Source: Antedon mediterranea (taxonomy: Eukaryota; Animalia; Echinodermata). From it: a stretch of 64,000 nt of DNA. The first letter of the stretch is position 1; each line of letters begins with the position of its first letter. The stretch covers positions 17,419,648 to 17,483,647 of the forward strand of contig NC_092673.1 of NCBI RefSeq assembly GCF_964355755.1. The letters are read 5' to 3'. This document shows, piece by piece, positions 5,019 to 49,700 of this stretch. The notes below the pieces were generated by a model. It was not told the origin of the DNA and searched no databases. It saw only the letters and a program-made list of their open reading frames with translations. A program made the position numbers and the translations under genes.

Positions 5019-6415
5019 TGCAGATAGTTTAGTTTAGTTCTGTAGTTATAATGCTTTATATTTCACATGACAGAAGATTGTAAAAATCTGTTGAATCAGT
5101 AAGTTTGTCTAACCTGCATAACATAATGCCACACTCATTTTGGTAGAAATACACCAGGAGTAGATCCAGGATTTAGAGGGGACGGCTAATAATAGACTGG
5201 GGAAAGAAGCCTAGGCCCCTTGGTTCTAATCAAAATTTTAAAATGTCCTCTTTCGCCATGCTTTTATAAAGTCTCCCACCATTTAATTTTTATGATTTCG
5301 GACCTCCACATACTAAAATGGCAGTGCGAAATAACACTTTTGGTTTTTAATAGTAAATTAACAATAAATGATATCATTATTGAATAAAGAATTGTTTATC
5401 TCATAATAAATATATTTAATTCAAAATAACGTTCTGTTCTTATTATCCATTTTTTTATCCATAATTGTTATTTTAAAATATTTTGTATAAAACTGGTAGA
5501 TTGCTCACAATAAAATACAAACAGTAGTTTTTGTTTCATTATGCAAAGTATGATTTTTTTTTAATTAATAATTTATAATTAGGTGATACATTTTAATATA
5601 GCTTCTAAGTGCATTCTCCATACCAATTTATGATAAAAAAATAAATAAAATTAATGTGATGTGAAGTAGGATTGGCCTTCCCATGGATATCTTTTTCCCT
5701 TCTTGATATACCTTACCAATAATTAACCAGTATATAGGCCAATAAATAATATTATAAATACTATTATCACAACATAAAATGGCATAGTAGGCCTCTATTA
5801 ACCAAACAGAGTCTCCTAATTACCCTTAGTATAAATTGTTTTTTATAACAATTCCTGGTAATCAAAATACACATACTATTCTGAAGCACAAAATATTATT
5901 AAGAAATATATCCACAACACTTTATTATTTTATTTAATCAGCAAAGCATCCATTATGAATTAAAAAAATACATAGTTAAGTGATGTTTTGTTCCAAAATC
6001 AATAAATCTTATAATGTACTAGCCCAAGCAAGTACATCTGTACAATTTGCACCTCAATAATTCACCGTCAAATATGCAATTACATTTTTAAAAACATAAG
6101 AAAACGTTTAAAGTATTTGTTGCTCCTAATCTATACTATGTGTTAATGGAGATAATTTTGACACAATTTGATCTATATACAGTATCATGCGACTTTAACC
6201 CAATGTTGTAACTCTTTACATATGGCTCTGGCTCCGCCCATAATTCGTTCGTTTACATTGGTTGAATAGGAATTATGATATCTTTCTAATATACTATCTT
6301 TGTTTATATGAAGTTTGCAAACTGTAGATAGGTAAACAAGACTTATATTTTCTATTATAGGCTAGCACGCAAGACTGATTTAAGGAAGTCATGTGATGCA
6401 CAGAAGCAGTAACAA

Positions 6416-12799: not shown

Positions 12800-13642
12800 G
12801 GAGTCATCTTCATTCAGTAACACCAGCATACAGGTCATCTACATGCAGTAACACCAGCATACAGATCATCTTCATTCAGTAACACCAGCATACAGGTCAT
12901 CTACATGCAGTAACACCAGCATACAGATCATCTTCATTCAGTAACACCAGCATACAGGTCATCTTCATTCAGTAACGCCAACATACAGGTCATCTTCATT
13001 CAGTAACACCAGCATACAGGTCATCTTCATTCATTAACACCAGCATACAGGTCATCTACATTCAGTAACACCAGCATACAGGTCATCTTCATTCAGTAAC
13101 ACCAGCATACAGGTCATCTTCATTCAGTAACACCAGCATACAGGTCATCTTCATTCATTAACACCGGCATACAGGTCATCTTCATTCAGTAACACCGGCA
13201 TACAGGTCATCTTCATTCAGTAACACCAGCATACAGATCATCTTCATTCAGTAATGCCAGCATACAGGTCATCTTCATTCAGTAATGCCAGCATACAGAT
13301 CATCTTCATTCAGTAACGCCAGCATACAGGTCATCTTCATTCATTAACACCGGCATACAGGTCATCTTCATTCAGTAACACCGGCATACAGGTCATCTTC
13401 ATTCAGTAACACCAGCATACAGATCATCTTCATTCAGTAAACACCAGCATACAGATCATCTTCATTCAGTAATGCCAGCATACAGGTTATCTTCATTCAG
13501 TAACACCAGCATACAGGTCATCTTCATTCAGTAACACCAGCATACAGATCATCTTCATTCAGTAACACCAGCATACAGGTCATCTTCATTCAGTAACACC
13601 AGCATACAGATCATCTTCATTCAGTAATGCCAGCATACAGGT
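12800..13642. repeat. Minisatellite, 31-bp unit, ~27 copies
   Basis: Unit caggtcatcttcattcagtaacaccagcata. Confidence 0.95.
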
Positions 13643-13798: not shown

Positions 13799-16700
13799 AT
13801 GGAAAGGTACGTTTGTTTTTTATTTCAAATCCAACAAAAATAACCAGCTCCAATATGTAAATGTTAAAAACAAATTAAAATGTTTGAATAGTTAGCAATA
13901 CTTTAAAACTTTCTTAAAAGATTATGAAATTATAAATATTACAAATAAAGGGCTCATTCTCATCAAATATAATGATGATATTGATTATTTCCATCAATCA
14001 TCATTTTCATAAAATAGTGTAATAAATCATTATTTCTTACATTTTAACAGGAACAAATTAGAAAAAGCTTTGTTGTACAGGGGTGATTTGCAAACAATTA
14101 AACAAATTTGTAAGACGCAACCAGATCTTGTGAAATCTATCAATGAGGTATAATATTATCAAAGAAGAAATTTAATTAAAGTTTAAAATTATAGAGATTG
14201 TAATTTTCTTTATTATTTATTATAACATTTTTTTATATAATGAATTACAATTATTTTTCAATATCACACTAATGATGTTGGTAAGACCTGCATGCACTGA
14301 TTAACCACATTAGGCTAAAAATAATAATATAAATACACACTGATGATGGGGATAACCTGCATGTACTGATTAACCACATTAGGCTAAAAATAATAATATA
14401 AATACACACTGATGATGGAGGTATAACCTGCATGTACTGATTAACCACATTAGGCTAAAAATAATAATATAAATACACACTGATGATGTTGGTATAACCT
14501 GCATGTACTGATTAACCACATTAGGCTATAAATAATAATATAAATACACACTGATGATAGGGGTATAACCTGCATGCACTGATTAACCACATTAGGCTAA
14601 AAATAATAATATAAATACACACTGATGATGGAGGTATAACCTGCATGTACTGATTAACCACTTTAGGCTAAAAATAATAATATAAATACACACTGATGAT
14701 GGGGGTATAACCTGCATGTACTGATTAACAACATTAGGCTAAAAATAATAATATAGATACACACTGATGATGGGGGTATAACCTGCATGTACTGATTAAC
14801 AACATTAGGCTAAAAATAATAATATAAACACACACTGATGATGGGGGTATAACCTGCATGTACTGATTAACAACATTAGGCTAAAAATAATAATATAAAT
14901 ACACACTGATGATGGAGGTATAACCTGCATATACTGATTAACCACATTAGGCTAAAAATAATAATATAAATACACACTGATGATGGAGGTATAACCTGCA
15001 TGCACTGATTAACAACATTAGGCTAAAAATAATAATATAAATACACACTGATGATGGGGGTATAACCTGCATGCACTGATTAACCACATTAGGCAAAAAT
15101 AATAATATAAATACACACTGATGGGTATGGCAAGCCTCAGCTGTCTGGAGTATTCAAAATATTATATTATTATATCAGAGGTCCCAAATTGGGAAAGTCC
15201 ATTCGCAGGAGATTTTGTCGTGAACCACATTCAATTCGTCGGGGCGTCGAAAGTCAACGCGCAGGGAATCGAAAATCAACACGCGTGTCGTTTACGTCTC
15301 TTAATTAATTAACTAAATATGTTACATATACAGTATATACAATATTTACACATAAGTTTGCTTAATTTTTACATAGGTTTATCCATCAGTATTTTTACAT
15401 TCTTATTTTTTTTATGGACACATCCTCAGTACAAAGAATTAAAAAAATATATACTGTATTTTAACTAAAATTCAGTATATAAAATAATTTAACTTAATTA
15501 CATAGGCACAGGCCTAGCCTAGGGCTTCTACTAGGCCCTAGCTAGCTACCATTTTAACCCCCCCCCCCCAAAAAAAAAATAATAATAAGAAATAACTATT
15601 CCGAATCCGTCTTATGCTACATTACGCGAGTTAACATATTATTTCAGATGAAAAACATTGAGTTTTATATTGTTTTATCCATACGTAATTACACTGGCAT
15701 TAAAGATATAACATTAAAATGTAGGCCGTTTATGAGCTATTTCGCCGATTTCTTATCGCTGGGAAATTCCCCACCATCGACATCGATCGAGGAGTAGGCC
15801 TAGGCTAGAATAGAGGCCTAGCGTGCATGCCGGAACGGGTGGATTATTGCTATATAAATAACAAGTTTGAACAAAAGAGCTTACAACAATCTTAGGTAAA
15901 TTTTTATTAAACGTAGGCCTACTTGCTTGGCGAATCCATATGCTCGTATTATCGGATCGTACAGTAAAACCAAATAAAACACCGCCTCAACAACCTCGTG
16001 CGATGTGCGATCTGTTGTTCTTTGCAGCGGATCAACATTGGTAGAGTCCATTAATTATGAGGGTGTTTAAAAATGTAATAACTATTAAAAACGTGTCTCA
16101 ATCACTGTGTAATCAAAGCGTTTATTTAGTTAAAACTTGGATCCTCCCAAAATTGATAATCGCGTATTCCGGTGACCACGTGATTGATTCACGGTTGGTT
16201 GCACGCTCTTTTTTTTCTACGTCCGGCGTGTAGTAACCGTGCATGTTTATATTATTGTTACGGTTTAACAAAGGCAGTGCATACAAATAAAAATACAATA
16301 ATAGACCACAGAGACTGCATGAATAGACATTGTTTCAACATCCTGCCTCACTTTTGTCTAGTTATTTATTGATTATTGTTGACCTGGGCTGAGCCTGGGT
16401 GTAACCGTAAATCAATTTGGCCAAAAATATGGGGAAATTTGAAAATGCGGTAAAAAAAATCAAAATGCGGTAGAAAACGTTGAGATAGCGGTAGCGCGGT
16501 AGATGGGTTCTAAAAGCGGTAGACTACCGCGAGTAGCGGTAGACTTGGGACCCCTGTTTTCACGCTACATCACAAGAGAGGACTCAATCAGATATAAAGC
16601 AAGCAGCAATTTTAGGACTATAGTTTATAGGTCCCAGCTGCTGGACCCAAAAAACATCTGGGAAAAGTGTCTATGAGGGTTCACGGTTGAACGATTTTGG

Positions 16701-19700
16701 ATTCTTGCCCTTTGATTGGTTGACTTCAATGCAAATGGTTTAACCTAAATTTGTTATCGTATCTAGTTTAACTTAATTATGATATTAGTTTCATTGGGTG
16801 TTAAAAATCAGTACCAAAAGTATGTACCAACTTTCTCTACCATTGAGTAAATATTCTAGAAGTTGCACTTAATTTACTGAAATTTCTCATTACGCAAATT
16901 TATATATAAATTCATTAAACTGCTTATTGGCCTCATATTTTTAATATCTGAACATTTGTTTGTACAATTTTATGAAAGTATTTTTTCTCATTACGCAAAT
17001 TTATATATTAATTAAGTAATAGGCTAACAAATCTCTAGATCTGATCCATGGTAAGATAATCTATTAAACCCAATTTCACATAATGTCTGTTGTCGGTATT
17101 ATACACCAGCAAATTTGCAAAAGAAGGTAATGTACAGGGATTTGCTAGTGTAATAGGCTAACATTATATAGATATGCTGTGGTAAACCATTCTATTTTGT
17201 TCTACTCATTTATTAATAATGATAATTATGATTATTTATCACAATATTTAGTAGCAATTGTTGTTGTTTGTATTGAAAAAAAAAACAAACAATTTTACAT
17301 AATGTCTGTTGTCAGTATTTATAAACTTTATTATGATTCCTTTCCAGAATGGTGACACTCCATTACATTCATATCTGGGGAGCGGATATAGATCTACCTT
17401 AGAAATAGTGACTTGTCTCATTCAGCATGGGACACCAGTAGCATTGCAAAATAAGGTAATGTACAGGGATTTGCTAGTGTAATAGGCTAACATTATATAG
17501 ATATGCTGTGGTAAACCATTCTATTTTGTTCTACTCATTTATTAATAATGATAATTATGATTATTTACCACAATATTTAGCAGCAATTGTTGTTGTTTGT
17601 ATTGACAAAAAACAAACAATTTCACATAATGTCTGTTGTCAGTATTTATAAACTTTATTATGATTCCTTTCCAGGATGGTGACACTCCATTACATTCATA
17701 TCTGTGGAGTAGTATGTATCCACCTACCTTAGAAATAGTGACGTGTCTCATTCAGCATGGGGCACCAGCAACATTGCAAAATAAGGTAATGTACAGGGAT
17801 TTGCTAGTGTAATAGGCTAACATTATATAGATATGCTGTGGTAAACCATTCTATTTTGTTCTACTCATTTATTAATAATGATAATTATGATTATTTACCA
17901 CAATATTTAGCAGCAATTGTTGTTGTTTGTATTGAAAAAAAAAACAAACAATTTCACATAATGTCTGTTGTCAGTATTTATAAACTTCATTGTGATTCCT
18001 TTCCAGTCTGGTGACACTCCATTACATTCATATCTGAGGAGTGGATGTACTGCACCTACCTTAGAAATAGTGACGTGTCTCATTCAGCATGGGGCACCAG
18101 TAGCATTGCAAAATGAGGTAATGTACAGGGATTTGCTAGTGTAGTAGGCTAACATTCTATAGCAGGCCTCGAATTTTACCGCGGCCAGTGCCGTCGGTGC
18201 CCTCCCAGTTGGCCTCAATGCCCTCGAAAATTAATAGCACCCACGGCCACTACTGGCCTGCCCTTTTTTTGCGTTGGCCGTGAGTGCCCTTCCCGAGTTT
18301 TACCACAATAAAAACCACTAAAGTAGATAGAAAATAATGTCAAGAATATCGGACGAGGCGCAAAACTATCGCCTGTCTTCGTTGCAAGGGGATTTCCCTA
18401 AACGCATTTAGAGAAAACATCGAACATATTTATATAACCAAAACAATATCGTCCCGGCCGCCGTGCGTGGTAAATAATGGTATAGATAGTACATTAAAAT
18501 ACAGGGGTGTACACTTTTAATAATAAAGCTAAAAACGTTCCTCGATCGGAGGTCACTGAAAGTATTAAAGTCGCACCACCCCCGCCTCAATAATCGAGCT
18601 AGCCGCCTTCGTTGAAAAAAAAATTACACGCACTCCTTGTCCTAGCCAGCCTATCCTCCCGCCGCCGATCCGATCAACAAACACACGCGATTCAATACAT
18701 TGGGAAAACAATTCCATTTGACGCACACGCACCCTCTGATAAGAAATTTCACACGACGTCGTCGTACGTGTGAGAGTACGAAGGATCGGTCGTTGGAAAA
18801 ACAATTCCTTTTGACGTACACGCACCCGCTGATATGAAAATACCATGTGCGTTCCTGCATGGTGTAGTCCATTCCATTATACGTGTAAAATTAGGGGTGT
18901 CAACTTTTAGTACTAAAGTTAAACCGGTACCTCAACCCGAAGATCGTTGGAAGTATATTGTATTTATATTTTATCGCACCCACCTCAATAATCCAGCCGA
19001 CAGATCATCGAAAAATCTTGTTTAACGACGTCGTACACTAAATTAACAAACGCGTTTTTACCGAACTCAAGGAAATGGTATAGTCCACAATACACGTGCA
19101 GAAGGCTAAACGAGAGAGAGGGGTTGGCGTCCGTCCGTCCGTGTTTTGAATTCTTATGAATATGGATTATACTAACAAAAAAGCTTCAGAAATCGAAACT
19201 CGGAAAATAACAATAATTTATATTCTACAACATAATGTCATTGGCTTGATTTTTACCGTGGTTAACACTCTGTGTATGAATAGTTGTAGTTAAGGCCTAC
19301 AAACAAATTGTTTTTGTAACCTGTGTTCTCCGTCCGCTACGCCTTTAGTGCTGCTAAGTGCTTGCTGTTGTTAGGGTCTTTACCCGTTGGGCCTGGCTTC
19401 ACATGCCTTTTTTTGATCGCATTGTTTGAAACTAAACGAAACAACTGTGAACGCTAAACATCGTACCTTAATAATTATTATTTATATGGATCGTAAATAC
19501 ACGTAATATTTATATGAAATACAAAAAGATGTAGACAGTCCTCTCCTACTACTACTACGCAATCTGATGAATAGGGGAAATACCCCCAAAAATGTTTGCG
19601 GGTAGAATTTTTTTTTTTGAAAAAAATTCCACCCGGGCGCTCAACCGGAAACAAGCTATTTTTAAATTTTGGCCTATTTATTAAAATATTTTTTAATTTT

Positions 19701-22700
19701 GGCCTTGGTGCCCCTTCGATTTAAAACAAATGGCCTTGGTGCCCTCCCATTTGGCCTTGGTGCCCCTCAAATCAATGAAAACCGGAGGCCAAATGGCCTT
19801 GCCCCTAAAATCCCCAAATTCGAGGCCTGCTATAGATATGCTGTGGTAAACCATTCTATTTTGTTCTACTCATTTATTAATAATGATAATTATGATTATT
19901 TACCACAATATTTAGCAGCAATTGTTGTTGTTTGTATTGACAAAAAACAAACAATTTCACATAATGTCTGTTGTCAGTATTTATAAACTTTATTGTGATT
20001 CCTTTCCAGAATGGTAACACTCCATTACATTCATATCTGGAGAGAAAATATCCACATACCTTAGCAATAGTGACTTGTCTCATTCAGCATGGGGCACCAG
20101 CAACATTGCAAAATAAGGTAATGTACAGGGATTTGCTAGTGTAATAGGCTAACATTCTATAGATATGATGTGGTAAACCATTCTATTTTGTTCTACTCAT
20201 TTATTAATAATGATAATTATGATTATTTACCACAATATTTAGTAGCAATTGTTGTTGTTTGTATTGACAAAAAACAAACAATTTCACATAATGTCTGTTG
20301 TCAGTATTTATAAACTTCATTATGATTCCTTTCCAGTATGGTGAAACTCTATTACATATATATCTGTGGGCTGGATATACTGCACCTACCTTAGAAATAG
20401 TGACGTGTCTCATTCAGCATGGGACACCATTAGCATTGCAAAATGAGGTAATGTACAGGGATTTGCTAGTGTAATAGGCAACATTCTATAGATATGCTGT
20501 GGTAAACCATTCTATTTTGTTCTACTCATTTATTAATAATGATAATTATGATTATTTACCACAATATTTAGTAGCAATTGTTGTTGTTTGTATTGTAAAA
20601 AAACAAACAATTTCACATAATGTCTGTTGTCAGTATTTATAAACTTCATTATGATTCCTTTCCAGTCTGGTGACACTCTATTACATTTATATCTGGGGAG
20701 TGGATATAGACCTACCTTAGAAATAGTGACTTGTCTCATTCAGCATGGGACACCATTAGCATTGCAAAATAAGGTATTGTACAGGGATTTGCTAGTGTAA
20801 TAGGCTAACATTGTATAGATATGCCGTGGTAAACCATTCTATTTTGTTCTACTCATTTATTAATAATGATAATTATGATTATTTACCACAATATTTAGCA
20901 GCAATTGTTGTTGTTTGTATTGACAAAAAAACAAACAATTTCACATAATGTCTGTTGTCAGTATTTATAAACTTCATTATGATTCCTTTCCAGGATGGTG
21001 ACACTCCATTACATTCATATCTGAGTAGTGTATATGCACCTACCTTAGAAATAGTGACGTGTCTCATTCAGCATGAGGCACCATTAGCATTGCAAAATAA
21101 GGTAATGTACAGGGATTTGCTAGTGTAATAGGCTAACATTGTATAGATATGATGTGGTAAACCATTCTATTTTGTTCTACTCATTTATTAATAATGATAA
21201 TTATGATTATTTACCACAATATTTAGCAGCAATTGTTGTTGTTTGTATTGACAAAAAACAAACAATTTTACATAATGTCTGTTGTCAGTATTTATAAACT
21301 CCATTTTGATTCCTTTCCAGAATGGTGACACTCTATTACATTCATATCTGAGGAGTGGATACCCTACCTTAGAAATAGTGACGTGTCTCATTCAGCATGG
21401 GACACCAGTAGCATTGCAAAGTAAGGTAATGTACAGGGATTTGCTAGTGTAATAGGCTAACATTCTATTCTATTTTGTTCTGGTTTACCACATTATTTAG
21501 CAGTAATTTTTACTGTATTGTCTCATATTATGGCATATCTGCAGCATTGCAAAATAGGGTAATGTAGGCTTACAAAGAATTGTCAGGACAATTTCACATT
21601 TTATTGTTATCAGTATTTATAAACTTCAACTTCAGTATCAATTAGCCTCCATATTAATCAATAGTATTACTACCTCAAAGAGTAGTATTATTTAATCAGA
21701 CTTACAGATATAGAATTCTCAAGTGTTTGATTTTTTTCACATTTTTCTCTTTTTACACATAGCACATTCTAACAAGTTTGTTTTGATTTAGATATTCATT
21801 TATAAGTCAACTATAATTGTAATGTGTTGTTGTTGTTTTAATATTTCATTTGTATCTGGATAGTATCCAAATATTATTTTCTTTGAAAGTTTATAGTAAA
21901 ACTATTTGTTGTTTTATATTATGGCTCAAACATTTTAACACATCTACCTACTGTTCCAAAGTAAACTTTTATTCAATTTATCTCTCTCTCTCTCTCTCTC
22001 CTCCATCTTTCAATGTTGAAGGCGGTAGACTATAAACAGCAGCACTCAAGTTTTGGTTTGGATACAGGAGTTATAGGTGGCGCACTGTACAAGTTGATGT
22101 CATTTATTAGCAAATAGTAATTTCTATTCACGTCCTAATTTACAACCAATGTTAAAAAATAGTAAATCTATGTGTTATCACATGATGCTCTTTCATCCAA
22201 TCTCTAGATGGTAAATGTTTGAGCCATGACATAATACTGTATGTATGTGATGCATAATTAAAGTGTGTTATATTGTATATCAATAATTTCTCAAAACTAC
22301 TAATAACTAAACCCATTTTTTTAATAGGATGGAAATACACCTGTCTCTCTTTTAGAAAGTAACAGGTGGATAAAGGAGCATAGTAAAACTGAAATTTTAA
22401 ACTTCTTAGAAGGTAAGTGAAGTTTTAATTATTGAAATTTTAGGATCAACTAGTTTCATTGCAAACGATAACAATTTGACTTCTTGTTCCAAGTGAAGAA
22501 GAATGTCCAGATAAAGAAAATTAACATTTATGATATATCATTCACAGGTTTATTATAGATTAAATAATTCAGTGGGATAGTAGTATACATGGAAGTTGTG
22601 ATATGTTGCAAGATGTAAATTATTTTGCTATTAATACGATAAAAATAACACAAAAACGCAAACTTTAAAATTCCTTTGAAATAAAAATATTAAATAAATC

Positions 22701-28700: not shown

Positions 28701-31700
28701 CCAAATAAGATGTAGTAATGAATGCTTTCAAAAACTAACCATTTCAAGTTTCACTGTGATTAAGTGTTTTCATAATTTTTTTTATACAGGAAACATCTAG
28801 ACATCATTGGACCAATCTCCAGTTCATATTATCTTACATCCTGTCAGTTTATTCTCATAGTCGTATTGTGGAAGAAGATGAGGAGAATGAAGTTGACAAA
28901 CCAACTATCTTTATTGTGGGTACACACAAGGGTAAGCTTGGTAAGACTGAAAAACAGCAAAATGATGAGGTTAATACTTCTTTTGTTTCTATATTTTATA
29001 AATAGCCACAACCAAAGATACATTGCAGTTGTAAATATTTTTAAATATGTATTACTTAAAATAAATTACAAAATTGACACATTCTTATTATGATATAGGT
29101 GTAAACTGTTATTAAAATTATTTACAAACAGGCAGAAAAGGCGTTTAAAATTATTCAAGATGTGCTTAAAACAAAACCATATGGAAATCATGTCTACCAC
29201 AAATATTTTGCCATTGAAAACAGCCAACCAACAACAGATAAGAGCTTTAGTGATCTCAAACAAGTTATTGATGAACTTATGAAAGCTTTAGAAAAGCCTT
29301 TTCCTTTAAAGTGGATGCGTTTTCGATGTGATCTACATGATCTAAGAGGAAAAAAACAGCCCTCTTTTTCTTTGTGTCCTTTAGAAGAGGTAAATGTTAT
29401 TTGTTTTGTTTTTGTTCTTTTTTTCAGAAAAGAACATTTTGGGAAATATTAAGTCGCAATATATCTATCAAGTATCTAAAAAAAAAAAATTAATGTTTCC
29501 AAATATAAGTACCCTTTAATTAAAAAATGTCTATAGATAATTAGATTACTATATCCAAAACCATATTTTCATCTCAGATATTTGCTGCCATTGTTTTATT
29601 TATAAATTGTGTGTTTGAAAATAATAAGGTAATTAGCCATTGAAATTCAATATTTAAAACTATTTTTTCATGTATTACCCACATGTTACAAAAACTGAAT
29701 ATGATTTCATATTTTTTTTTTTATTCTGAATAATACTAATTTAATATTATTTCTTTTAGATCAAAATTCTGAAAAGTAAGAATGGTATTGTTGAAAAAGA
29801 AAAATACAAATCAGTCCTGCTTAACTTCTTGTACGATCTTGGTGAAATTGTTTACATGCCTGACAACAAATTACTAAGGGATAAAGTCGTGCTAGATCCG
29901 TTGAGGCTGGTTGAAATTGTCACCAAATTTGTAACTGTGGTTCCCCCAAAATATCCCGTAAGTAGACTCATGTAATGTCTTGCATTGTAAAAACGTGTTG
30001 CCGTAGTATAATTACTCCTGTTCTGTGTAATTTATTATTCCTTAGCAAAGAGTTTGCCTTTAGTAATATTTGATAGAGATGCTTAACATTTTCTATAGAT
30101 AAAAAAAAGTCATTTGTAATTAATTATTTCACTTTTAATATTCTGCTTTCAATCTATTACAATTGAAGCACTATAAAAGTGAATAGCAAACTAACTTGGA
30201 GTAATTTCACAGTTTAACCCTTTCACTGCGTGTATTATCGGGTATAAACATGTCGTTGAACTCCATATAACCATCATTACCGAGTACACTATATTTTTGA
30301 TAAACTTAAATATATTTGCAATGTTTTAAAACTATTTTCCTGCACTACATGCAACCTCTATATTTTTTAATATCGTCGTATCGTACCATTTTCTTACTCC
30401 AAACGGTAGACCAACCTTTTACCCACCTCAAAAATATTTACAAAATTATCTCATTTAGTAGGTTTTTGCAATTTATTAAAAATCACCTGTCTCTCAATGT
30501 TATGCACAGTGAAAGGGTTAAACCACAATACTGTATTATACCAACACATGGTTCATCTATATTCTAAATGCTTACTGTATCTATTGCCGTCATCCTCACA
30601 ACTGTTATAAACACAAAATACGATGCATGGTTGATAGTTGGTGTTTTTTAGTCCGCTAAATTTAGAAGATCTTTTGATAAGCTTGACAAAGGCATACTGG
30701 AAGAAGACTTGTTGCGAAAATTATGGAAAGATAGTAAAGTTGATGACGGAAAGAATTTTGAGTTCCTTGTAGCACTTATGATTCAATTAGGTTTCATTTG
30801 TGAGAGAAAGACAACAAACAGCCAGGATGTCGCAAGTACATCTACAGTAGGTTTTGTTTCTTTAATCTTTCATTTTATACATGTAAGATGTGGGATAAAA
30901 AGTATTATTTTAATAGTTTGGATTTTTAATGTTCAAAGTTTGAATAAACTTTCTAATGAAAATGTCTACATGACAGAGTATCTTTAGTTTGCTTAAAATA
31001 ATTTAAATGGCATTGTTACAAATTAACAATTTCAGAAATCAGTTGGAAAACGATCCTTTTTTGTGCCACTGCGACTTGCTATCAAGACAAGTCAAGTAAG
31101 ACAAGTACCTGATGGTTCACGATCTATCAGCAGGCCAATCTATTACGACTTTGAGGGATATCTGCCAGACGTGTTGTTTCCGTATTTAATTATTGAATTC
31201 CTTAACAAATTTCAAAAGGAAGGAGTTGACCCAATACTTGCATGTAGTTATGCAGAACTTTACCTCAACGAATATCATCATGTGATTTTGTCTCTTGACA
31301 AATTTATTACTAAGAATGATGAGCGAAAGTTCTTGTTAAAGGTAATATATAATCTCAAATGTTCAATAAATATCACTAAATTATGAAAGTTAAATATTGT
31401 TGCTTAGTCTTTCCCTGATCTGTCATGTCAGAATCCACTTTAAATGCATATAAAACTAAAACTAAATTCTGATAACAAAACATTACATCTATTTTTACTT
31501 TCTAGATGGCTATTAAAAGAACAGATTCTTTTGATGAAACGAGTAAAGAGGAACCTTCAGCTGAAGCATGTAAATTGGTATGTTATGTTACCAGTTATGT
31601 TATCTATCTATTTGGTAGTTTATGAAAATACACGTAGAAAGTTTTCTCCTCAATTTTTTGTCAGGTTTGCTTGATGTCTGAAAATGTCTGCATATTTACA

Positions 31701-34700
31701 ATGTATACTGATTTTACAAATCAATTACAAATTATTTTCCAACATTGCAATGTATAGTTTTATAATGAATGTTTATGAGATGAATGGTAAGAATATTTCA
31801 TGAGTTGAAAAATTGTCTGCACTATTTTTAACGAAGCAGAGAGCCGAGTTGAAAATAGAGCAGTCAATGAACAACATATTCTCTCCATTCAACGAAAACA
31901 AAACATTCATTATTTATTTTATAACACACCTATTTTTTATTATATTTATTTATATTTGTTGATATGATATGTCTTAAATTCAATTAATTATGTTACCAGT
32001 TATATTATATATCTGTTTGGACCTAGTTTATGAAAATACACATAGAACACTTGATGAGAAATTTACACATGTTTCTTTAAACTATGCTATAAAGTTCTCA
32101 TCATATTTCTTTGTGAGCTACTGCACCATTGATGCTTTCATATTTGCTGGTGTGTGTCTTAAATTGTTATCAATCGACATTAAATTTATATCTTTAGGTT
32201 TTGTCAACAGTTGAGAAGTCATTTGAACAATCTAAAGATGGCGGTAGAAGTGGGATTCCATTCAAGAGATGCATTCCTTGTCAGTGTAGTGATCAATTAG
32301 ACAAGAAGCATTTTCAAATTCTTAAAGATTTCCAATGCAGGAAGTTAACGTGCACAGAAACTGGCAAGGCTATCACGATGGATGTCACATGTTATAAGCG
32401 GCTGTTTGGAGGTAAGAGTAATTAAATTTATTTATTTTTATTAAGTACATTTTCATTAATACACTACTTTCTTCATGAATGACTCTCACTCATCCCTACG
32501 GGTGCAGGTCAAGTCGGCCCTAAACCGTCTCGGCCAAAGTCAAGTCGGCCCCACGTTAAGTCGGCCCCAAGTCAACTCGGCCTCACGTCAACTCGGCCAA
32601 AAACTAATCGGTCAACTCGGCCACAATAAAGTATGGAACGCAAAAAGTGCTTAATATTATTATGATTCTTATACTATCCACGCTTTAAAAAAAATGAAGA
32701 AATAAAAAAAATATAATATAATTAAATAATATCATATAAAAAAATGAACTCATTGCCGATATGAATATAAGTACCCGCGTGTTACAAAAACACGTGCAGG
32801 TACCGCCCCGGTACCGCATTTTAGTAAATCGAAGACGGAGGCCTACGTTCCACCATTTGACCATAGAAAAAATGATCGTACATCGTTTTTGTCCATGATT
32901 TGCGTTAAAAAAAAAGGGGAATCCCCCGGTCAGTGAAAACACGTAGGTATCGAAAAAGCTGCCAAAGGCGCAGGGAGGCGCAGCTACGAATTGTTTTCAA
33001 TTGTGTAATTTGAAATTTTATTAAACGCAAATAAAGGAAAGTTGGTGAAATCATTACTATTTTTTTTGCTAAATATATTATTGTCTAAATATTAATATTC
33101 ATTAAAAGTCAGAATTATTTATAGTTAAAAAATTGTGAAGAAATATTATTTTATCAATCCCCTTCATTTGCACTTTTTGCGTTCCATACTTTAACGGGGC
33201 CGAGTTGACCGATTATTTTTTGGCTGAGTTGACGTGAGGCCGAGTTGACTTGAGGCCGAGTTGACTTGAGGCCGAGTTGACTTGAGGCCGAGTTGACTTG
33301 AGGCCGAGTTGACTTGAGGCCGAGTTGACTTGGGGCCGACTTGACTTGGGGCCGACTTGACTTGGGGCCGACTTGACTTTGGCCGAGACGGTTTAGGGCC
33401 GACTTGGATCGAAATCATCCCTACAGCACAGGAAACTGAAAAACAAAAGGCTATTTCTGTTCTATAAACAATTTGTGACCTATTTGTGCAAAAATTGACA
33501 TGTTTAAATAATTATAGAATAGAGAAAGAGGATACTTTACCGTATTTGAAAATAGACATATTTGATAATATACTTCCAGTAGTAGTACAACATAATCATT
33601 GTTGATAATATATACATTGTTACAACATAATCATTGCTGTGATATCTTCATTCCTCTCAGTAGTAGTACTAGCAGAATCATTATTGATAATCTATACTTT
33701 GTTACAACATGCTGCTATTAGCTGTGATATCTTCATTCCTCTTACCAGTAGTAGTACTATCTGAATCATTATTGATAATCTATACATTGTTACAACATGC
33801 TGCTATTAGCTGTGATATCTTCATTCTTCTTACCAGTAGTAGTACTATCAGAATCATTATTGATAATCTATACATTGTTACAACATGCTGCTATTAGCTG
33901 TGATATCTTCATTCCTCTTACCAGTAGTAGTACTATCAGAACCATTATTGATAATCTATACATTGTTACAACATGCTGCTATTAGCTGTGATATCTTCAT
34001 TCCTCTTACCAGTAGTAGTACTATCAGAATCATTATTGATAATCTATACATTGTTACAACATGCTGCTATTAGCTATGATATCTTCATTCCTCTTACCAG
34101 TAGTAGTACTATCAGAATCATTATTGATAATCTATACATTGTTACAACATGCTGCTATTAGCTGTGATATATTGTTTCGGTATCTTTTATTCATCAAGTA
34201 TATATGCACAAATTTGATACTGCAACAAAAAATGTGACATGACAACAAAAAATTAGAATTGTTCGTAATTCAATAAAGTTAATCTTATTTTGAATTTACA
34301 TATCCCAACAAACATAATACAAAACATAAAGATAGTCAAGTATCAACTTCCTGGGAAAATTGAGATCTATGTTACTATGTTGGATGTATTATGTTCGTAA
34401 CAGTTGTACTGCTGGGGCTTCCTTATCTCATTCTCATTCTTTCTTGGAGATCCAAGAAACATTTATTATATATGGCCTTTGGCCCAAATAATATACAATG
34501 TAATACAATATTAAATAAATATCAGTTGAGTGCGTTTAAAAATTCTGTTCTACGTTTAAATGAAAAAAATAAATATTTTCCAAGTTTAACAATAATATCA
34601 GTATTTGTAGTAGACATAAGATAAATATATTTTAATTTAGTTGGGTTGTTTGTATAAAAGGAAAACATATATTTAGTTCTAATATCTGAATAAAATGGAC

Positions 34701-40700: not shown

Positions 40701-43700
40701 ACTAATAATATTGTGTCTAGAGCTTCTAGACGTTTATTTTCCTTGTGCATTTTGAAGAAAGCAGGAATCTTAATTAATGATCTGTTGACTGTTTATATGG
40801 CGTATATAAGACCTATTTTAGAATATGCTGCCCCTGTTTGGCATGGCGCTATCACTAAGGACATGTCCAAGTCTATTGAAAAGGTACAAAAGAGAGCATT
40901 GCGTATCATGCTAGGTAACAACTATTTGTGCTATGATCATGCATTGTCTGTTACTGGTTTACCTACTCTTGTAGAGAGAAGAAACAAACTTGTGTTGTCT
41001 TTCGGGGAAGGCTTATTAAAATCCGAGCTGTTTAGAGAAATACTTCCCCCTCTTCATAAGCCAGCTCGGTCTCTCAGAGTCAACCGCTTTCTAGAAGTAC
41101 CTCATTGTAAAACCAGCAGACTTAGGTCGTCTCCAGTTCCCACCATGGTGGATATAATTAATAGGCACCACTAGCTCTTTTTTAGATATGTAATAAGTGA
41201 ATGTTTTAAGGTTTTTTATTCATGTATGTTTTTAATTGTATGGTACGATATCTAATTTTATTAAGATGTTTCTATTTTTATAGCAATTTTAACTAATTTT
41301 TAGTCATTTGTAATACATTTCATTTCAGTCCTTGACTGTCGTTTTGTAATATATTTTTATATACCGAATAAATAAAAAAAATAAATACATTTTTTCGTAT
41401 ACAAGAAATTAAATAATGCAGGGAGTTAAAAATAAAATTATATTAGCTAATTTCCAAATTTCATTCCAACTCAATTCATACATATCTTTTCCATTTTTCT
41501 TAATTTTTTGATATACATAATTGTTTTCATGATCAGTTCTCAATTAAAATGTTAGACATCAGTACAAATACATTTTGTTATATATCAGAATATCATAGAC
41601 ATTGGTTGTGGTTGAAAATTTTAGATAGGCCGTGAAAACGTAGTAGCCTACAACAACTCTTACTGTAGGCCTAACTAGTTAGTCATAGCCTTTCTAATTT
41701 TATTGCAATAATGTCTTGCCTAGAGCATAGTGCATGAGATATTCTACCCAGGCCTTCACCTATTCTTTACTACTCTGAACTTGTGTGTGCATAGCTAGAT
41801 CAAATGAAACACAATTATGGAAAAGTCCATTAATTATGGTGATTATTTCGTTTTAATTACACTTGATACTGTGGTTTATTAAATCACATCCCTACGTCAA
41901 CAGTCACATATTTCTGTAATCATATAGGCAATAGTTTAAATACATCAAGAAATTGGTACGACTTAATTTGGACATGACTATCTTCCAACTCCACTCCCTG
42001 AGCCTCAAGTTTATCCATCCCGTAATTGGCGAGTTGCTTGCTGTTAGATTCGTATGAAATAAGACCAAACAAAAAAATCATTTATTTTACTTTTTGTTCA
42101 CTCTCACAAATGTGTTCCTTTAAATATTATTTTGTTATCAGTCGAAAAGGATATTCCATTTGCTATTGCTTTTTATAAGAAAGCGTACAATGAAGCCTCA
42201 AAGTGATTTAGTATATATTTAGTATACGTCGTATACAAACGTATATAGTATATGAATGTATATGAATGTATTTTTTCGACCACTAACATGCATAGCGCCA
42301 TTGATTTTGTACCTCTGTCTTTGAATTGAAGCTTTATAAATTTTTGATATACTGTAATAATAATAATAATAACATAGGTTGGTTTTTTGCAAAGGGTTAC
42401 CTTGGACAACATACTGTACCAGTATATATCTGTCTATATATAAAGATGTGTCATCACTATCTTGTTTATATTGAAATGGATTCTATGAATAGTATTGGTA
42501 CAGTATTATAATTTATTGTATATCTTAAATCCTGTTGAACCAAACTTTTAGAACATAATATTGTAATGTTAAATTTAACTGAGGCTAAATAACTATAAAA
42601 ACAGTACTATGGTCAGATTTAGACTTCCAAGGAGTGAGTGGCTTATATTGATTAATTATCTCCTGTACAGTACCATGTTGGCTGTAAAGTCTTGTGGTGT
42701 AAGTGGTCAATTTCACTTTTTCAGACGTGCAATGTGATACAGAGACTACTGCATTTTTCAGTATTCTTAAATAAAGTCTAGCCTAAAATCTGATTAGCAA
42801 ACACTAGACTTTGTTGTTTTCTTAATCTAGCCATTATCATCAGTCGGATTTTTAAAATTAACAATTCAGTCAGACAGTTATCATTTATTAAAATAATATA
42901 TTATATCAAATTTTAAAAAAATGGCCACTGAGCATTACTTTTGTAGCCTACTGTTTGTATGGTTATGTTCTGTTTTTTTTAAAGGTGAAATAAATTATAT
43001 GATTTCTTATCAACTATGTCCTATTATTTTATTTACAGGCAGGACAGATTTCCAAAGTTTTAAAGTTGGTCTCAGTAGATGCTTTGATGATATTATGATG
43101 GAAATATACCATTGGCTAAAATTCCTACTATTTGGTCACTTGGGTTTTATTACATATCAAGATTTCAATTACTTGCTCATTGCACTTAAAGACAAAGGTT
43201 TTATCTCACCAACCAATGTTTATTTGCTGCTAGAGATTGCACAGCTATCAGAAATCAAAGCTGCTGAAGTACTTGTAATACTGTATATGAAAGACAATGT
43301 TCAGGACAGGCCTGATACAAGTTTGTCATCTTACAGAAAGCAACTGTTTAAGGCCCTGAGACTGAGAGAAGAAGACCAAAATACATTACGTGATGTTATT
43401 GATTTGTACGAGTTGACAAGTGATGACTTCACCAATATCTGGGATGCAGTTCTTTATCTGGAGATTAAGAAAGAATTAGCAGATGATTCCGTCAAAATAC
43501 AAAAGTTTGCAAATTGTCTAAGCACAAGAGCAAGAAACACACTACTTGGTATGTTATAGAACTATCCTGAAGTTAATTGTTGATGTTATGTTTATTTTAA
43601 CAAAAAAAGTTATGTAATGGTAATTTAATTTCAATAAAATAATAACACTAATTTAATTTAAAGTTCAGAATATATTAACTGATTATTTGATTATTTATAG

Positions 43701-46700
43701 GCAACAGTGAGAAGGACAAGAATGAGACTGCATCTTCAAGTCAACAATTGTTACCAACAGAAGGTAATTTTTCATAAAGTAAATTAGAGAATAGTAGGGA
43801 TAAAAAAAGATTATGAAAATGTGATTTATGATTTCTTTATTATTTATTTATTTTGATCACTATATTTCAAGAGGGTGTCCCAGCCTGCGTGATTTTATGG
43901 GGCCCTCAACAAGACAAAAGGACAAAAACAAAGAATCATAAAAAATTATGATATCAACAAGATGATAATGACAAAGAAGTTGATAATGAGAATGATATTC
44001 TAACATTTAGTAATTCACATCATATTTTAATACAAAGAATATATTGTTGATTTTTAAGATAAAAATGAAATAAATTTAAATGGGGGAATAACCTGTGACT
44101 TGCAGCCTACTGGGCTGAATTTGGTGTGGGCGGCACATACTTCAACTTCTTCCCTAAGGTTCCCTTCGTGTCGAGTGCTGCTACCAAACGAGACCTGTTC
44201 GTCTGTCCACAACAATATTTCTGACCTTGGGCCCACAACTTAGGGCATGTATGTATCTCCATAACTAATGGTCGTAGACACTTGAATTTGGTTTTTTAAA
44301 CCAATTCAAGTGTTTACGACCATTAGTTACAGAGAATAATTTAAAAATTATTCGAAATATACACGTTGTTATATTTTACACATTTTGACAAATGTTACAA
44401 AAGGTCAAGGGTTATATAAACAAACACAAATTGTATCTCAGCAACCACTGGGTTGGTTTTAACAGTGACCATGAAGGAGTTTTTTAAAATTACGTATCTT
44501 AAGTTTAAAGATAATATTTAATAATATAATAAGGCTGTATTTATGATTATTCTAAGATCATTAATGTTGTGCCCAAGGCAGGCAAATTAAATGGCAACCT
44601 AAAAAACTGTGGATAACCAAAGAATTTATAGGTCTAATATGGAAAAACGCAGATTGTACAAAGCAGATCTCTTATTCTGAACAATTAAAGTGACCTATCT
44701 TTCTAATTTTTATCAGGGGGACAATAAATCTTATGTACATGTATGTTTAATAAAGGAACTAACATAGCTTTCAACACTGCCAATGTGTATTATTAAATTC
44801 TATCCATACTATCAGGCTTATCTGGTATTTAACTGATTGACAAATTTATTGTTAGATACTGATTATTTGCTCTTGTTCAACCATGTAGCATGTGTGGTCT
44901 TCTGGTTTGTTTTGGTAAAAAAAAAGTGGAAATATTTTGTGTCAGGTCAGGTCAATATAACAAATTTTTCTACAGTACCATAACACTACTGTATATTTAC
45001 AATGATAAATAGTACAAATACTAATTAAAATTAATTAAGTTGGATGGTGAGAATATTTCAGGAGTTGAAAAATTGAATAAAGCAGTTTTTCAACAAATAC
45101 AAAACATTCATTATTTGTTTTATGATACACCTACTTTTATTTAATTTATCTATCGTAAATCATTGATGAATGCTTGGTCGGGAAGCTAGGCCATTAGAGA
45201 AGGCAGTGCTCCAACTTTAAATTCGGAGTACAGTTATAGACGGCACGCACAACAAGTTGATTCTCCAAATTTTTACAAAAAGCTGAGTGTTCATACTGTA
45301 ATTATCACCATTAGATATATCCCTTTTCCATGAGATAGGGCTAATTTCAAATGACACGTAATGCCTAATTAAATGAATCAAATTGCATGAATACAATCAG
45401 GTATATACAATAAATTGGTTTATTTAGTTCTTGTTACATTAGAAAAAATTCTGATAAATTTGTTTTTATAATTACTCGCGAAATGGCGCCTTCGACAGCC
45501 TTCCGCAGCCTTCCGCAACCATCGGGATATGTTTGTGTTGTGGGGATAGCTACTCCAGTATTTTATCTGCAATGTTGAATATTCCAATGTATTGGTGGTG
45601 AAAAAGAAATATGAAAACAAGTACGAACCTTTTGTTGTAGTTTATTGTACAAATATGAAAACATATACAGTATCTTATAATGTGGCCTAGTAAAATACTG
45701 CAATCGAATATGACATATAGGCCTAGGCCTACATAATCCTGGCGCCACCCTTGTACTTACGGCTGCTGCTGATAACAGTACGTATAATCCTTTTGGCGTT
45801 AATGTAGTTTCGTACCCAACGCTTAAAATTGCTCAAAATTGTTTCAATTATACTTCATCCAACCTACTCACGGTTGTCTACTTTTTTTAGAAATCCATTT
45901 TCAGCTTAGCTTAATGAAAATCATCGCTACGCTACAATAGCGGCCGGATAACATGTAGAGTAGCGTGGGCTTGTTCACCTAGTTGTATTGTGTGTGTTGT
46001 TAATTAAAACCACTTTAAAATCGAAATCCAAAAATTTTTATTTACTACTACTGTACATGTAATACATATAACAGTGATATTGATTAGGGCGTCATCCGTT
46101 CACCCACTAATGAGTTTTACAATAACAACACAATTTTCCCTTACTCAAATTATAATATATATAACTACTGTTACTCATGATGCTTAATTCTTATTGAGCT
46201 TTATTGTTTATTTCAGATCTACACCAACCAAAAAATCTCAGGTAAGTAAAAACTAGGTATTAGTATGCTTTGGAGTAGCCCAAATGACATTTGCTTTTCC
46301 TGAGTGAGTGATGCCTTTCATACTATATATAAAGTATGGTTAATTCTGACATAGGCGAGCACAATGGAAAAACTTCGGGACAAATCTCCGACTTTGATAC
46401 CTACCTTATCTATCTCAGATGTACCGCGAAACGAAGATTTGGTAACATTAGTTTCCAATATTCCGTATTTCTATCTTAGGACGATATTATAAAGCGTTTT
46501 GAAACAAAATTTCTGATTTCATCGGTAGATTTTCAACTGTGAACGGTAGAAGTAATTTCCGGGTTCACTGTGAGTCCACAGGTTCACCTTGCAACTTCCT
46601 GGTTTCAACTAAGTTGGCCGTTGGTGGTGATAGCCATCTTAAGTTTTTGTTTATTTTCGGACGGTGCGTGTGAAGGTGCAGTAGCAAAATAAAAATTATA

Positions 46701-49700
46701 CTGCAAATTAATAAAGATCAAATTAAATATACGGCATAAAGCATCCGAGTATATTGTGGGGAATAGTATATAAAATTACATAGGGTGAACTGATGATAAG
46801 ACCTTTTGTTTGAAATCAAGTGAAACCCCGATAACCAAGTTATTGAGTAAGCTGGCAGGAATACAAGCCATCTAAAACGTCCTCCTTCTTAGGCCGAAAC
46901 GGCCCACTTTTTCGCAGAAGTTAGTTTCAAAAGATGTTTAAACTAAATAATGTATTATAATTATAGCAATTAGAATGGTATTTATTTGAATAAACGCTGA
47001 ACACCTTCCCAATAAAACATCACTTAGAATAATTATTGCATTTTGTATTATATTTGTAACACAATTATACTATTACTATCTGTTATCTAAAATTTACCAA
47101 GCATTTGTTATTCTTTTTTACCACTTTTCATATCTATTAGAGGATTTTATTTGATTATAAATGTTACCATATTATTAAAACTAAAAAAATAAACGTATGC
47201 CTTGAATAAGCACCTCCCTCAAATGAACTCCGCCTCCCACCTCCGCCCTACAAGGGCCCTCCAAACAATAAACACTATACTTTAAAATGTTATTAATCAT
47301 CTAAAGCCCTTTTCACATAGAATTGCGGCAATATCCCAGTAAGCAAGCCGGTATTATTGCCGGTCTAGACCCATTCACACAAAAGGTAATTTTACCGTTT
47401 TCTGTGTGAAAGGCCACAGTGAAAAGGTGCAATATTTAAAGATTACTGTCGTCATAAAATAGAGGTCGCACTTTTTTCGAAAAAAAAAATGGCGGGCACC
47501 GCCAATGAAACACGCCATGCGCGCACATGTTTGCTGATGTTGTTTTGTGTGTCCATCTTTAATTTTATTGGTTTTTATTTACGATGCATAAAACCTATAT
47601 TTTTGCCTAACACAACTCCGTGTTAATAACTGCCCGATTCTACAGAAACAAAATCTATTAGGCCTACAAATATTAATTTAATTTAAATTATCAGAAGCTG
47701 TTATGAGCTAGCACCAGGCGCGCGCACCGGAGGATGTTCCTGCTAGAACTATGCTAACTAGGGCCTAGGCTTATGTACGTTACAGCAAGTTAAATAACCT
47801 TTGGACCAACATCTGTTATATTTTTATTATTATTGGCTGTATTCTTCCATGTATTATTTACACACTAACCTAAACAAATATATATATTGATAAAATCTAA
47901 TAATTTGGCCTAAAATAATTGTCACAGTCTTCTCATAATAAATGAAAATGTCCCGAATTTATCCTTGCTTCGCTGCGTAAGCAGGCGTTATATCGTGGAC
48001 TCTTTCACACAAATCAGGCTTACGACCGTGACGGTAATAATATTTATTTATTTATTTATTTATTTGGAATTACACCTTTAGATCGGTGGCACACTTAGCA
48101 CAAAGGTGCATCCTTCACAATATAAAATATAACAATTAACAGAAAAGTAAAAAAAGGCAAAAGCAACTATCAACCCCTATCCTACCCCCCCCCCCCCCCC
48201 AATTTACATCGATACATACAGTAGATCATTACTTTACACAATGAATACAAAACAAGATATAGTAAAAGTGTATAAAATAAAATAAAATCAGCTGATAAAC
48301 ACAGCTTATTACGAAAAACCCCCAACCCACTTTTATTTCAATTTACTTAATGTAGCAATGTAGATAACATAGTTATTGAGTCATGGAATTCAGTGAATCA
48401 TTTCGAAATTGCCATGCTTGTTTTAGGTATCTTTTACAAAAACTATCCAAAATATTTTCACACTCTTCATCAATTAAATTATCTGAGTATCCCAAAATAT
48501 ATTTAAGTTTGTCATTTTCAGGAGAAGTATAAAAAGTATCAAACATATCTTTGCTGCCATTTCTATACATATCCACATATAAATGAAATAATTCCTGATT
48601 ACGTATATTATTTAAAGCTGGACAATTAAGGATGAAATGATGGATGTCTTCGTCCGAATTTGTACCGCACAATTTACATTTTTTATTATTATCAATATTC
48701 CAATTTGCAGTTCTATCATTCAAAGGTAGAGTATTTGAACGAGCTTTAAATTTTAATGCAGCACCTTCAAAATTATTTTTATCAATTAAGTAATTTTCAA
48801 GTCCAGGTTTTGATTTTAATGTTTCATAGATGTGGAGACTTGATTTATTTTGTAATTCAATTCTCCATTCATCTATCATTATATAGTTAAGTTTTCTTAA
48901 GATTTCAGAAATTGGAAAGTAGACTTCTTTATAATTTGAGAGAGTGGTGAAAATATTTTTGGATTCACAATTACACTTCAAGAGAATATCGTTTATACAA
49001 GATAGAAACTTATACCTTAAGTCTTTAAATTCACAATTAAGTTGTAGCATTCCAATAAACATAATTTTTGGCCATCGATAGTTTTCCATCTTTATAATTC
49101 TATGGAAGTATTTCATACGAAGAGCGTTATGAATCTTGTTAATTGGAGACCAACCAAGCTCTCCATATAAGGCGGCACAAGGAGTATTTCGAGGTGCTTT
49201 TAAGATATAACGTGCCATTTGGAGCTGGAGACGCTCTAGTTTATCTATATCTATTCTACTTAAAGAGCACCATACTGAACAACCATAGTTGATAGATGGG
49301 AGAACTATCGATCTCCACAGAGTATCCCCATAATATACTCTGTTAAAGTTATCAAAGCTACTGATAATTGATTTAACGTACGCTATTAATCTTTGACCTT
49401 TTTTTATAACATTCTCAATTTGTATATGGTCATTTAATTTACGAGAAATATGTACACCGAGATATTTATATGATTCAGTTTCAGATATAAAGCCATTACC
49501 TAATTTCCATTGTCTTACTTTATCAACACGTTTACCAGTTATCAGTATATTTGACTTTTCAAAATTAAAGCATAATTTCCATTCCTTAGCAAAATTTCCT
49601 GCAAGGTCTAACATTCTTTTCATTTCCAGTTCATTGTTAGCTAATAATACAATATCATCAGCCCAAAAAAGGCTACCCATCCATGTATCATTTATTCTAA

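What the first reader, a model, noticed from the sequence alone, without database searches (positions are those of the whole stretch)
14051..22412. Natural DARPin-like layout: unique N-cap and C-cap exons enclose interchangeable phase-0 repeat exons
Seen: the N-cap exon ends in phase 0, all eight repeat exons are phase 0-0 with near-identical splice sites, and the C-cap exon starts in phase 0. Any subset, deletion, duplication or reordering stays in frame (2^8 = 256 possible skip combinations). Inference: combinatorial splicing or DNA-level (even somatic) rearrangement could generate a repertoire, by analogy to Dscam or lamprey VLR cassettes.
Basis: partly seen in the sequence, partly recalled or inferred. 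Interest (0 to 1): 0.75.

Follow-up and report, generated by a model that had tools for sequence, protein, structure and literature searches.

The report
Feather-star sensor gene with cassette repeats
In a feather star, eight tiny look-alike exons each code one ankyrin binding repeat and differ mostly at the predicted binding face; they sit in frame at the front of a GTPase–death-domain (ROCO) gene that is likely a fast-evolving immune-type sensor, and mix-and-match use of the exons within one animal is possible but not shown.

Summary
The eight phase 0-0 exons and both caps are real and continue in one open frame into Roc GTPase, COR and DED-like domains. This is a ROCO gene of the crinoid Antedon mediterranea; its database model omits the ankyrin half. 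Introns of the ~330-bp units differ by 2.5% and exons by 11.5% (omega about 5). Variation concentrates at positions that ankyrin-library designers randomise. Related gene models carry 2-8 such repeats, and the units look recombinant, so germline duplication and exchange plus selection are well supported. Splicing support is family-level only: one likely RNA run has repeat-to-repeat splice joints, and one paralogue's two annotated isoforms differ by exactly one repeat. Nothing supports somatic rearrangement or VLR/Dscam membership, and 0-0 phase is also common in this gene's ordinary exons. The closest known system is the exon-per-repeat LRR-ROCO family of brown algae. This is an ankyrin, animal version that I did not find in print; the scan noted a similar mussel gene before.

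The parts
13799..13806 (+). First coding exon (ATG; M-E-R split codon, ends phase 2)
   Evidence: paralogues P0007, P0035, P0036 and P0129 start MER
14051..14147 (+). N-cap exon (phase 2 to 0)
   Evidence: 81% identical to the P0007 N-cap; two helices in the paralogue model
17071..17126 (+). Broken repeat unit: acceptor and most of the exon deleted, donor kept
   Evidence: the same form is in run X1 and a similar deletion form in X7
17348..17455 (+). Ankyrin repeat exon 1 (phase 0-0)
   Evidence: Pfam Ank E=1.2e-4, above cut-off
17675..17785 (+). Ankyrin repeat exon 2
18007..18117 (+). Ankyrin repeat exon 3
18163..19829 (.). DNA-transposon-like insert in intron 3 (14-bp inverted ends, 6-bp target duplication); second copy starts at 63618
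20010..20117 (+). Ankyrin repeat exon 4
20337..20447 (+). Ankyrin repeat exon 5
20666..20773 (+). Ankyrin repeat exon 6
   Evidence: reference
20994..21101 (+). Ankyrin repeat exon 7
21321..21425 (+). Ankyrin repeat exon 8
21518..21628 (+). Old degenerate remnant of a repeat unit (3' half of exon plus intron piece)
   Evidence: 76-88% matches
22328..22412 (+). C-cap exon (phase 0 to 1)
   Evidence: homologous C-caps in P0130, P0007, P0128, P0131
24784..24876 (+). Linker exon
   Evidence: the same linker follows the C-cap in paralogue model P0130
25242..28969 (+). Roc GTPase exons (G1 GQGGVGKT, TDG, DHGG, GTHK)
29132..32411 (+). End of Roc (ENS) and COR-domain exons
   Evidence: Pfam COR-A 1.1e-10 on P0001; 100% identity to P0001 over the exon searched
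43039..43548 (+). DED-like (probably tandem death effector) domain exon
   Evidence: top 10 structural matches are all DED proteins, Z 5.0-6.2; weak Pfam DED in paralogues
43701..52767 (+). Three small 3' exons (43701-43763, 46217-46241, 52736-52767); the database model's last exon was not found in the window

Best explanation
The array is the N-terminal ankyrin module of an ankyrin-Roc-COR-DED (ROCO) gene, likely an intracellular non-self sensor whose binding face is likely diversified mainly in the germline, by duplication and exchange of ~330-bp exon+intron units plus selection on surface residues. Shown: the exon layout, the open frame, the Roc-COR identity, exons diverging faster than introns, and variable repeat numbers among related gene models. 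Inferred: near-identical introns promote unequal crossover and conversion; selection keeps the paratope codons different; a ligand bound by the ankyrin stack would switch the Roc GTPase and let the DED-like tail recruit DED partners (caspase-8/FADD type). Skipping of single repeat exons likely adds some isoforms (about 55% for this gene), but a regulated 256-member repertoire is not shown.
For: Structure: one frame of about 1,260 codons with no stop, all internal junctions AG/GT (the last small exon was one base off there, corrected). Paralogue model P0130 has repeats, C-cap, the same linker and Roc in one protein; P0128 and P0131 are ANK-Roc-COR-DED. Family: 27 of 31 COR hits are Antedon proteins, 23 on one 36-Mb contig; 9 of 27 repeat-profile hits are Antedon proteins, on 4 contigs, with 2-8 repeats. 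Selection: intron p-distance 0.025 vs exon 0.115; pN 0.139 vs pS 0.044; 16 of 17 variable codons change the residue. Omega is 5.1-5.7, with 2dlnL 12.3-13.4 against omega=1. Nonsynonymous changes per site are 0.42 vs 0.07 in introns, P=4e-11. Location: 5 of 6 library-randomised positions vary; three or more residues occur at 4 of 6 of them vs 3 of 27 others, P=0.011 (positions from PMC4308713 passages); the helix1-helix2 loop also varies in length. Exchange: 45 of 105 informative site pairs are four-gamete incompatible. Near-identical repeats recur at adjacent and non-adjacent positions in P0128, P0129, P0131 and P0132. A form joining the 5' remnant straight to the post-array intron is in 3 of 4 runs, two organisms. 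Expression and splicing, family level: exon-end to exon-start joints in run X5 only, 1 of 4 runs; isoforms X1/X2 of one paralogue differ by exactly one 36-residue repeat in register.
Against: No transcript is tied to this gene's array. The database model P0001 starts inside Roc, and no protein returned up to one search contains this window's caps or repeats, so the ANK-to-Roc link rests on frame, phase and a paralogue's predicted model. Omega from 8 recombining sequences can be inflated. The conservative count (33 nonsynonymous vs 5 synonymous changes) gives only P=0.064, and the family-wide listed variants (31 of 36 nonsynonymous; 26 rows not shown) give P=0.083. Intron homogenisation alone lowers the intron baseline. 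Repeat counts in paralogue models are lower bounds. The DED match is middling (Foldseek best E=1.0; Z at most 6.2). Immune function is inferred only from evolutionary pattern and domain content.
Confidence: 0.65

Rival explanations
1. Splice-combinatorial receptor: the main source of diversity is regulated skipping of repeat exons, so that one animal expresses many of the 256 stacks, as proposed for brown-algal ROCOs.
For: All 256 subsets are in frame; splice sites are near-identical; a paralogue has an annotated one-repeat skip; up to nine ROCO splice variants are reported in Ectocarpus (PMC11378527, section read).
Against: Only one skip event was seen, in another gene and in a predicted isoform pair. 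The X5 joints cannot tell adjacent from skipped exons or which gene. Short 218-221 nt introns with intact sites equally fit constitutive inclusion, and 0-0 phase is common in this gene's non-repeat exons.
Confidence: 0.2
2. Neutral or decaying tandem exon array: units multiplied by slippage between near-identical introns, the protein tolerates them, and the gene has no special recognition role or the array is not used.
For: Two broken units and a transposon insert; the database model omits the array; many other minisatellites lie in the window; the count-based test is not significant.
Against: All 8 exons are intact with indels in multiples of 3; framework codons are invariant while paratope codons vary; omega is about 5; family repeat exons are spliced.
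Confidence: 0.1
3. Somatic DNA rearrangement (VLR-like or V(D)J-like) builds cell-specific arrays.
For: Near-identical introns could serve as recombination substrates; the same idea was proposed for Ectocarpus ROCOs (PMC3341825 passages).
Against: The germline gene is complete. There are no extra or inverted cassettes in the 64-kb window and 0 matches to 12- or 23-spacer RSS with up to 3 mismatches. The array-less form is shared by two organisms, which points to a germline copy. No somatic recombinant ROCO loci had been reported in brown algae (PMC11378527).
Confidence: 0.05

Closest known systems
Brown-algal LRR-ROCO genes (Zambounis et al. 2012, PMC3341825; Teng et al. 2024, PMC11378527)
   Same: N-terminal repeat domain on Roc-COR; one repeat per same-phase exon; expanded, clustered family; inactivated repeat exons; diversifying selection on the concave face; splice variants.
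   Different: Ankyrin (35-37 aa, phase 0) rather than LRR (72 nt, phase 2); dedicated N-cap and C-cap exons; C-terminal DED-like domain; an animal; no opposite-strand repeat exons in this window.
Fungal NLRs with highly conserved ANK repeats (Podospora; PMC4986451) and Tuber NACHT-ANK genes (cited there, not read)
   Same: Ankyrin sensor with high internal repeat identity, repeat-number variation and positive selection on the concave face.
   Different: NACHT/NB-ARC instead of Roc-COR; repeats C-terminal; Tuber splices codon-sized microexons, not whole repeats.
DAPK1-type ROCO (ankyrin-Roc-COR-death; architecture recalled)
   Same: Order ankyrin, Roc, COR, death-fold.
   Different: No N-terminal kinase here; DED-like rather than death domain; multigene and fast-evolving rather than single and conserved.
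DARPins (engineered; PMC8683736, PMC4308713)
   Same: N-cap, stackable internal repeats, C-cap; variation at positions 2, 3, 5, 10 and 13.
   Different: Natural; 2-4 residue longer, length-variable loop between the helices; position 33 invariant; fused to a signalling core.
Arthropod Dscam / lamprey VLR
   Same: Modular, interchangeable units that could vary a binding surface.
   Different: Here the exons are serial repeats of one stack, not alternative choices; the germline gene is complete; the protein has no signal peptide and carries a GTPase, so it is likely cytoplasmic.

Membership tests
ROCO proteins | Roc GTPase domain with G1-G5 motifs | tested here: met
   GQGGVGKT, TDG, DHGG, GTHK, ENS in order; Pfam Roc above cut-off on P0001
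ROCO proteins | COR domain directly after Roc | tested here: met
   COR-A E=1.1e-10 on P0001
ROCO proteins | Ankyrin array and Roc-COR on one transcript in this gene | tested here: inconclusive
   Open frame and phases fit; paralogue model P0130 links them; no read spans them
Capped ankyrin stack (DARPin-like) | N-cap, internal repeats and C-cap fold as one ankyrin solenoid | tested here: met
   Paralogue P0007 1-135: pLDDT 90.9, TM 0.74-0.78 to designed ankyrins/DARPins; this gene's own spliced protein was not folded
Capped ankyrin stack (DARPin-like) | Variation at paratope positions | tested here: met
   5 of 6 randomised positions vary; P=0.011-0.037
Brown-algal exon-shuffled ROCO | One repeat per same-phase exon | tested here: met
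Brown-algal exon-shuffled ROCO | Repeat is an LRR | tested here: not met
   Ankyrin
Brown-algal exon-shuffled ROCO | Diversifying selection on repeats | tested here: met
   omega 5.1-5.7; count-based test only P=0.064
Brown-algal exon-shuffled ROCO | Inactivated repeat exons in introns | tested here: met
   Two same-strand remnants; none on the opposite strand
Brown-algal exon-shuffled ROCO | Alternative splicing of repeat exons | tested here: inconclusive
   One annotated skip in a paralogue; gene not assignable for the X5 joints
Lamprey VLR | Incomplete germline gene with flanking donor cassettes | tested here: not met
   Complete open gene; no other unit copies in the 64-kb window; whole genome not available
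Lamprey VLR / V(D)J | Somatic assembly in immune cells | not testable with these tools
   No tissue-matched long reads; no RSS
Dscam | Mutually exclusive exon choice by docking/selector pairing | not tested
   Paralogue models include several repeats in series, which argues against one-of-n choice
DAPK1 | N-terminal CaM-regulated kinase domain | tested here: not met
   The gene starts at the MER exon plus N-cap
DED-containing proteins | Death-effector fold at the C-terminus | tested here: inconclusive
   Top 10 matches all DED proteins but Z 5.0-6.2, rmsd 2.2-5.2 A over 69-115 residues; Pfam DED below cut-off in close paralogues

The most novel reading that the evidence does not exclude
Feather stars have a family of natural-DARPin intracellular receptors: capped ankyrin cassettes on a Roc-COR-DED switch, diversified in the germline and recombined by exon skipping so that each animal, or each coelomocyte, expresses its own repertoire. 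This would be an animal counterpart of the brown-algal ROCO system, built from a different repeat and possibly shared with mussels.
Probability: 0.3. Interest if true: 0.85.

Novelty: new variant of a known kind. Interest (0 to 1): 0.62.

Why it matters
It points to an undescribed, rapidly diversifying receptor family in a deuterostome lineage whose immune genes are little studied. Standard annotation hides it: the database model of this gene lacks the whole ankyrin half. It would show convergence on exon-per-repeat ROCO sensors in brown algae and animals, and natural selection picking nearly the same ankyrin positions that protein engineers randomise. Unique caps make the splicing-versus-somatic question, open in brown algae since 2012, testable with one long-read amplicon.

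Tried and rejected
No whole genome is held, so paralogue exon structures were not inspected; their repeat boundaries come from protein models. No RNA holder was listed on record; X5 was only guessed RNA and also covers introns. In the wide read-laying only 15 of 348 joints were shown, so skips in this gene could not be examined, and contigs cannot order units across near-identical introns. Depth figures were not used as copy number or expression. RSS search: 0 hits, about 0.7-0.8 expected by chance (consensus recalled). Pfam gave nothing informative for the N-cap, C-cap or DED exons alone. Foldseek gave no match at E<=0.001 for the DED model. The representative search added one unnamed family-like protein, P0155, and no transcript-derived protein with this window's exons was identified; of its new hits only P0155 was inspected. 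Candidate first exons at 5067 and 7546 were dropped for 13799, which matches the paralogues. Literature searches found no paper on crinoid or other animal exon-per-repeat ankyrin-ROCO genes; subscription journals are largely not covered, and no supplements were read.
Full report
OBSERVATION. The region holds eight intact exons of 105-111 nt, each a multiple of three and stop-free, with near-identical splice sites. Three of three tested match Pfam Ank over the full profile, two above the cut-off. They lie in ~330-bp exon+intron units. Six introns are 218-221 nt; the third carries a 1.67-kb insert with inverted ends and a 6-bp target duplication, of which a second copy starts at 63618. Broken unit remnants flank the array on both sides. 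The N-cap exon ends in phase 0, the C-cap exon starts in phase 0, and 256 of 256 skip subsets remain open. The description is right. But phase 0-0 is not independent evidence of design: copies of one symmetric exon are necessarily in phase, and seven consecutive Roc-COR exons of the same gene are also 0-0.

WHAT THE GENE IS. An 8-nt ATG exon at 13799 supplies the MER start seen in four paralogues. Downstream of the C-cap the frame continues through a linker, Roc (G1-G5 motifs in order), COR and a 170-codon exon, about 1,260 codons with no stop (the last small exon was one base off there, corrected). A COR exon is 100% identical to XP_071947397.1 of the crinoid Antedon mediterranea. That model begins inside Roc, and no protein returned up to one search contains this window's caps, repeats, linker or first Roc exon, so the array appears unannotated. 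Paralogue model P0130 joins two repeats, the C-cap, the same linker and Roc, and P0128 and P0131 are ANK-Roc-COR-DED. The 170-codon exon folds with moderate confidence (pLDDT 65). Its ten best structural matches are all DED proteins, at middling Z 5.0-6.2; Foldseek's best was caspase-8/cFLIP DED at E=1.0. I call it DED-like. A paralogue's N-cap + two repeats + C-cap folds at pLDDT 90.9 and aligns over most of its length to designed ankyrins and DARPins (TM 0.74-0.78), so the cap names are justified.

FAMILY. 27 of 31 COR hits are Antedon proteins, 23 on one 36-Mb contig, and 4 are Anneissia; these are protein clusters, not a gene count. Nine of 27 hits to the repeat profile are Antedon proteins on four contigs. 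They carry 2-8 repeats with the same xGxTPLH to QNK register; the counts are lower bounds because models can omit exons. No named non-Antedon protein had this repeat type.

DIVERSIFICATION IN DNA. Among the eight units, introns differ by 2.5% and exons by 11.5%; pN is 0.139 and pS 0.044; 16 of 17 variable codons change the residue (the length-variable loop middle was left out). A codon model gives omega 5.1-5.7 with 2dlnL 12.3-13.4 against omega=1. Nonsynonymous changes per site exceed intron changes (0.42 vs 0.07, P=4e-11). However, a conservative count against synonymous sites gives only P=0.064, and the 36 exon variants listed for four runs (31 nonsynonymous; 26 further rows not shown) give P=0.083. 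Recombination can inflate omega. In the numbering of a designed ankyrin library (PMC4308713, passages: randomised positions 2, 3, 5, 10, 13, 33 form the binding surface), 5 of 6 such positions vary versus 9 of 27 others. Three or more residues occur at 4 of 6 versus 3 of 27 (P=0.011); helix 2 is almost invariant and the inter-helix loop varies in length. 45 of 105 informative site pairs are four-gamete incompatible, and near-identical repeats recur at adjacent and non-adjacent positions in paralogues. A contig form joining the 5' remnant directly to the post-array intron occurs in 3 of 4 runs from two organisms; allele and paralogue cannot be told apart. Together this fits germline unequal crossover and conversion with selection on the binding face.

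SPLICING. With one unit as reference, run X5 alone (1 of 4) has joints from the exon's last base to an exon's first codon (table 5c). These are spliced repeat-to-repeat junctions at the predicted sites, so family repeat exons are likely transcribed and spliced. They do not identify the gene or show skipping. Database isoforms X1 and X2 of a paralogue (XP_071957837.1, XP_071957838.1) differ by exactly one 36-residue repeat in register; this is a predicted isoform pair whose read support I could not see. So skipping is plausible, but a 256-member repertoire is only arithmetic.

SOMATIC REARRANGEMENT. Nothing supports it. The germline gene is complete, there are no extra or inverted cassettes in the window, and there are no RSS.

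MECHANISM. Shown: layout, frame, domains, divergence pattern, family variation. Inferred: the ankyrin stack binds a variable, probably foreign, cytoplasmic ligand; this would switch Roc-COR and let the DED-like tail recruit DED adaptors or caspases. No ligand or immune expression data exist here.

COMPARISON. The nearest system is the brown-algal LRR-ROCO family: one repeat per exon, shuffling, positive selection on the concave face and splice variants, with somatic recombination proposed but not reported (PMC3341825, passages; PMC11378527, abstract, introduction, passages and one discussion section). Fungal NLR ankyrin domains show the same selective pattern (PMC4986451, passages; PMC13449251, passages). 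Passages of PMC8683736 gave the DARPin layout; passages of PMC12258605, PMC9334734 and PMC5094078 added only that Roc-COR occurs in immune-type architectures of Aplysia and sea anemones. It is a ROCO; it works like the brown-algal genes but is not one (ankyrin, DED-like tail); it is not a VLR or Dscam. Eight searches found no description of such genes in crinoids or other animals. The scan earlier noted a similar mussel ankyrin-cassette gene and a protist LRR-Roco gene; neither was checked here.

VERDICT. Real feature; a new variant of a known kind; interest 0.62.

Noticed in passing
window 7881-10616 (+): A separate spliced gene upstream, with several exons and no Pfam match for the two pieces tested; possibly transposon-derived.
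   Followed up: partly
window 106-1690 (-): 288-codon open frame with cysteine motifs and an acidic tract, transposase-like by eye; no Pfam match.
   Followed up: partly
window 48373-52071 (-), 34727-36424 (-), 40410-41174 (+): LINE-type elements inside introns of the ROCO gene; the first has an uninterrupted 1,232-codon endonuclease-RT frame. The third is a LINE-like tail by eye with no Pfam match.
   Followed up: partly
P0007, P0019, P0023-P0026: Antedon ROCO paralogues shuffle domains: two Roc-COR units in tandem, N-terminal DEDs, kinase, death domains and hydrophobic C-terminal segments; some may be fused gene models.
   Followed up: no
P0004, P0005, P0017: These paralogue models contain the same post-C-cap linker but unrelated N-termini, suggesting more unannotated ankyrin arrays in the cluster.
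   Followed up: no
window 4038-5019, 12803-13642, 14260-15123, 33576-34170: Homogeneous minisatellites of 89, 31, 71 and 88 bp; the 71-bp array lies in the intron after the N-cap exon.
   Followed up: no
window 61050-62239 and 32510-33406: Elements with long inverted arms, MITE-like.
   Followed up: no
window 46323-47238 vs 57337-58471: An ~1-kb segment duplicated about 11 kb apart at 82-94% identity.
   Followed up: no
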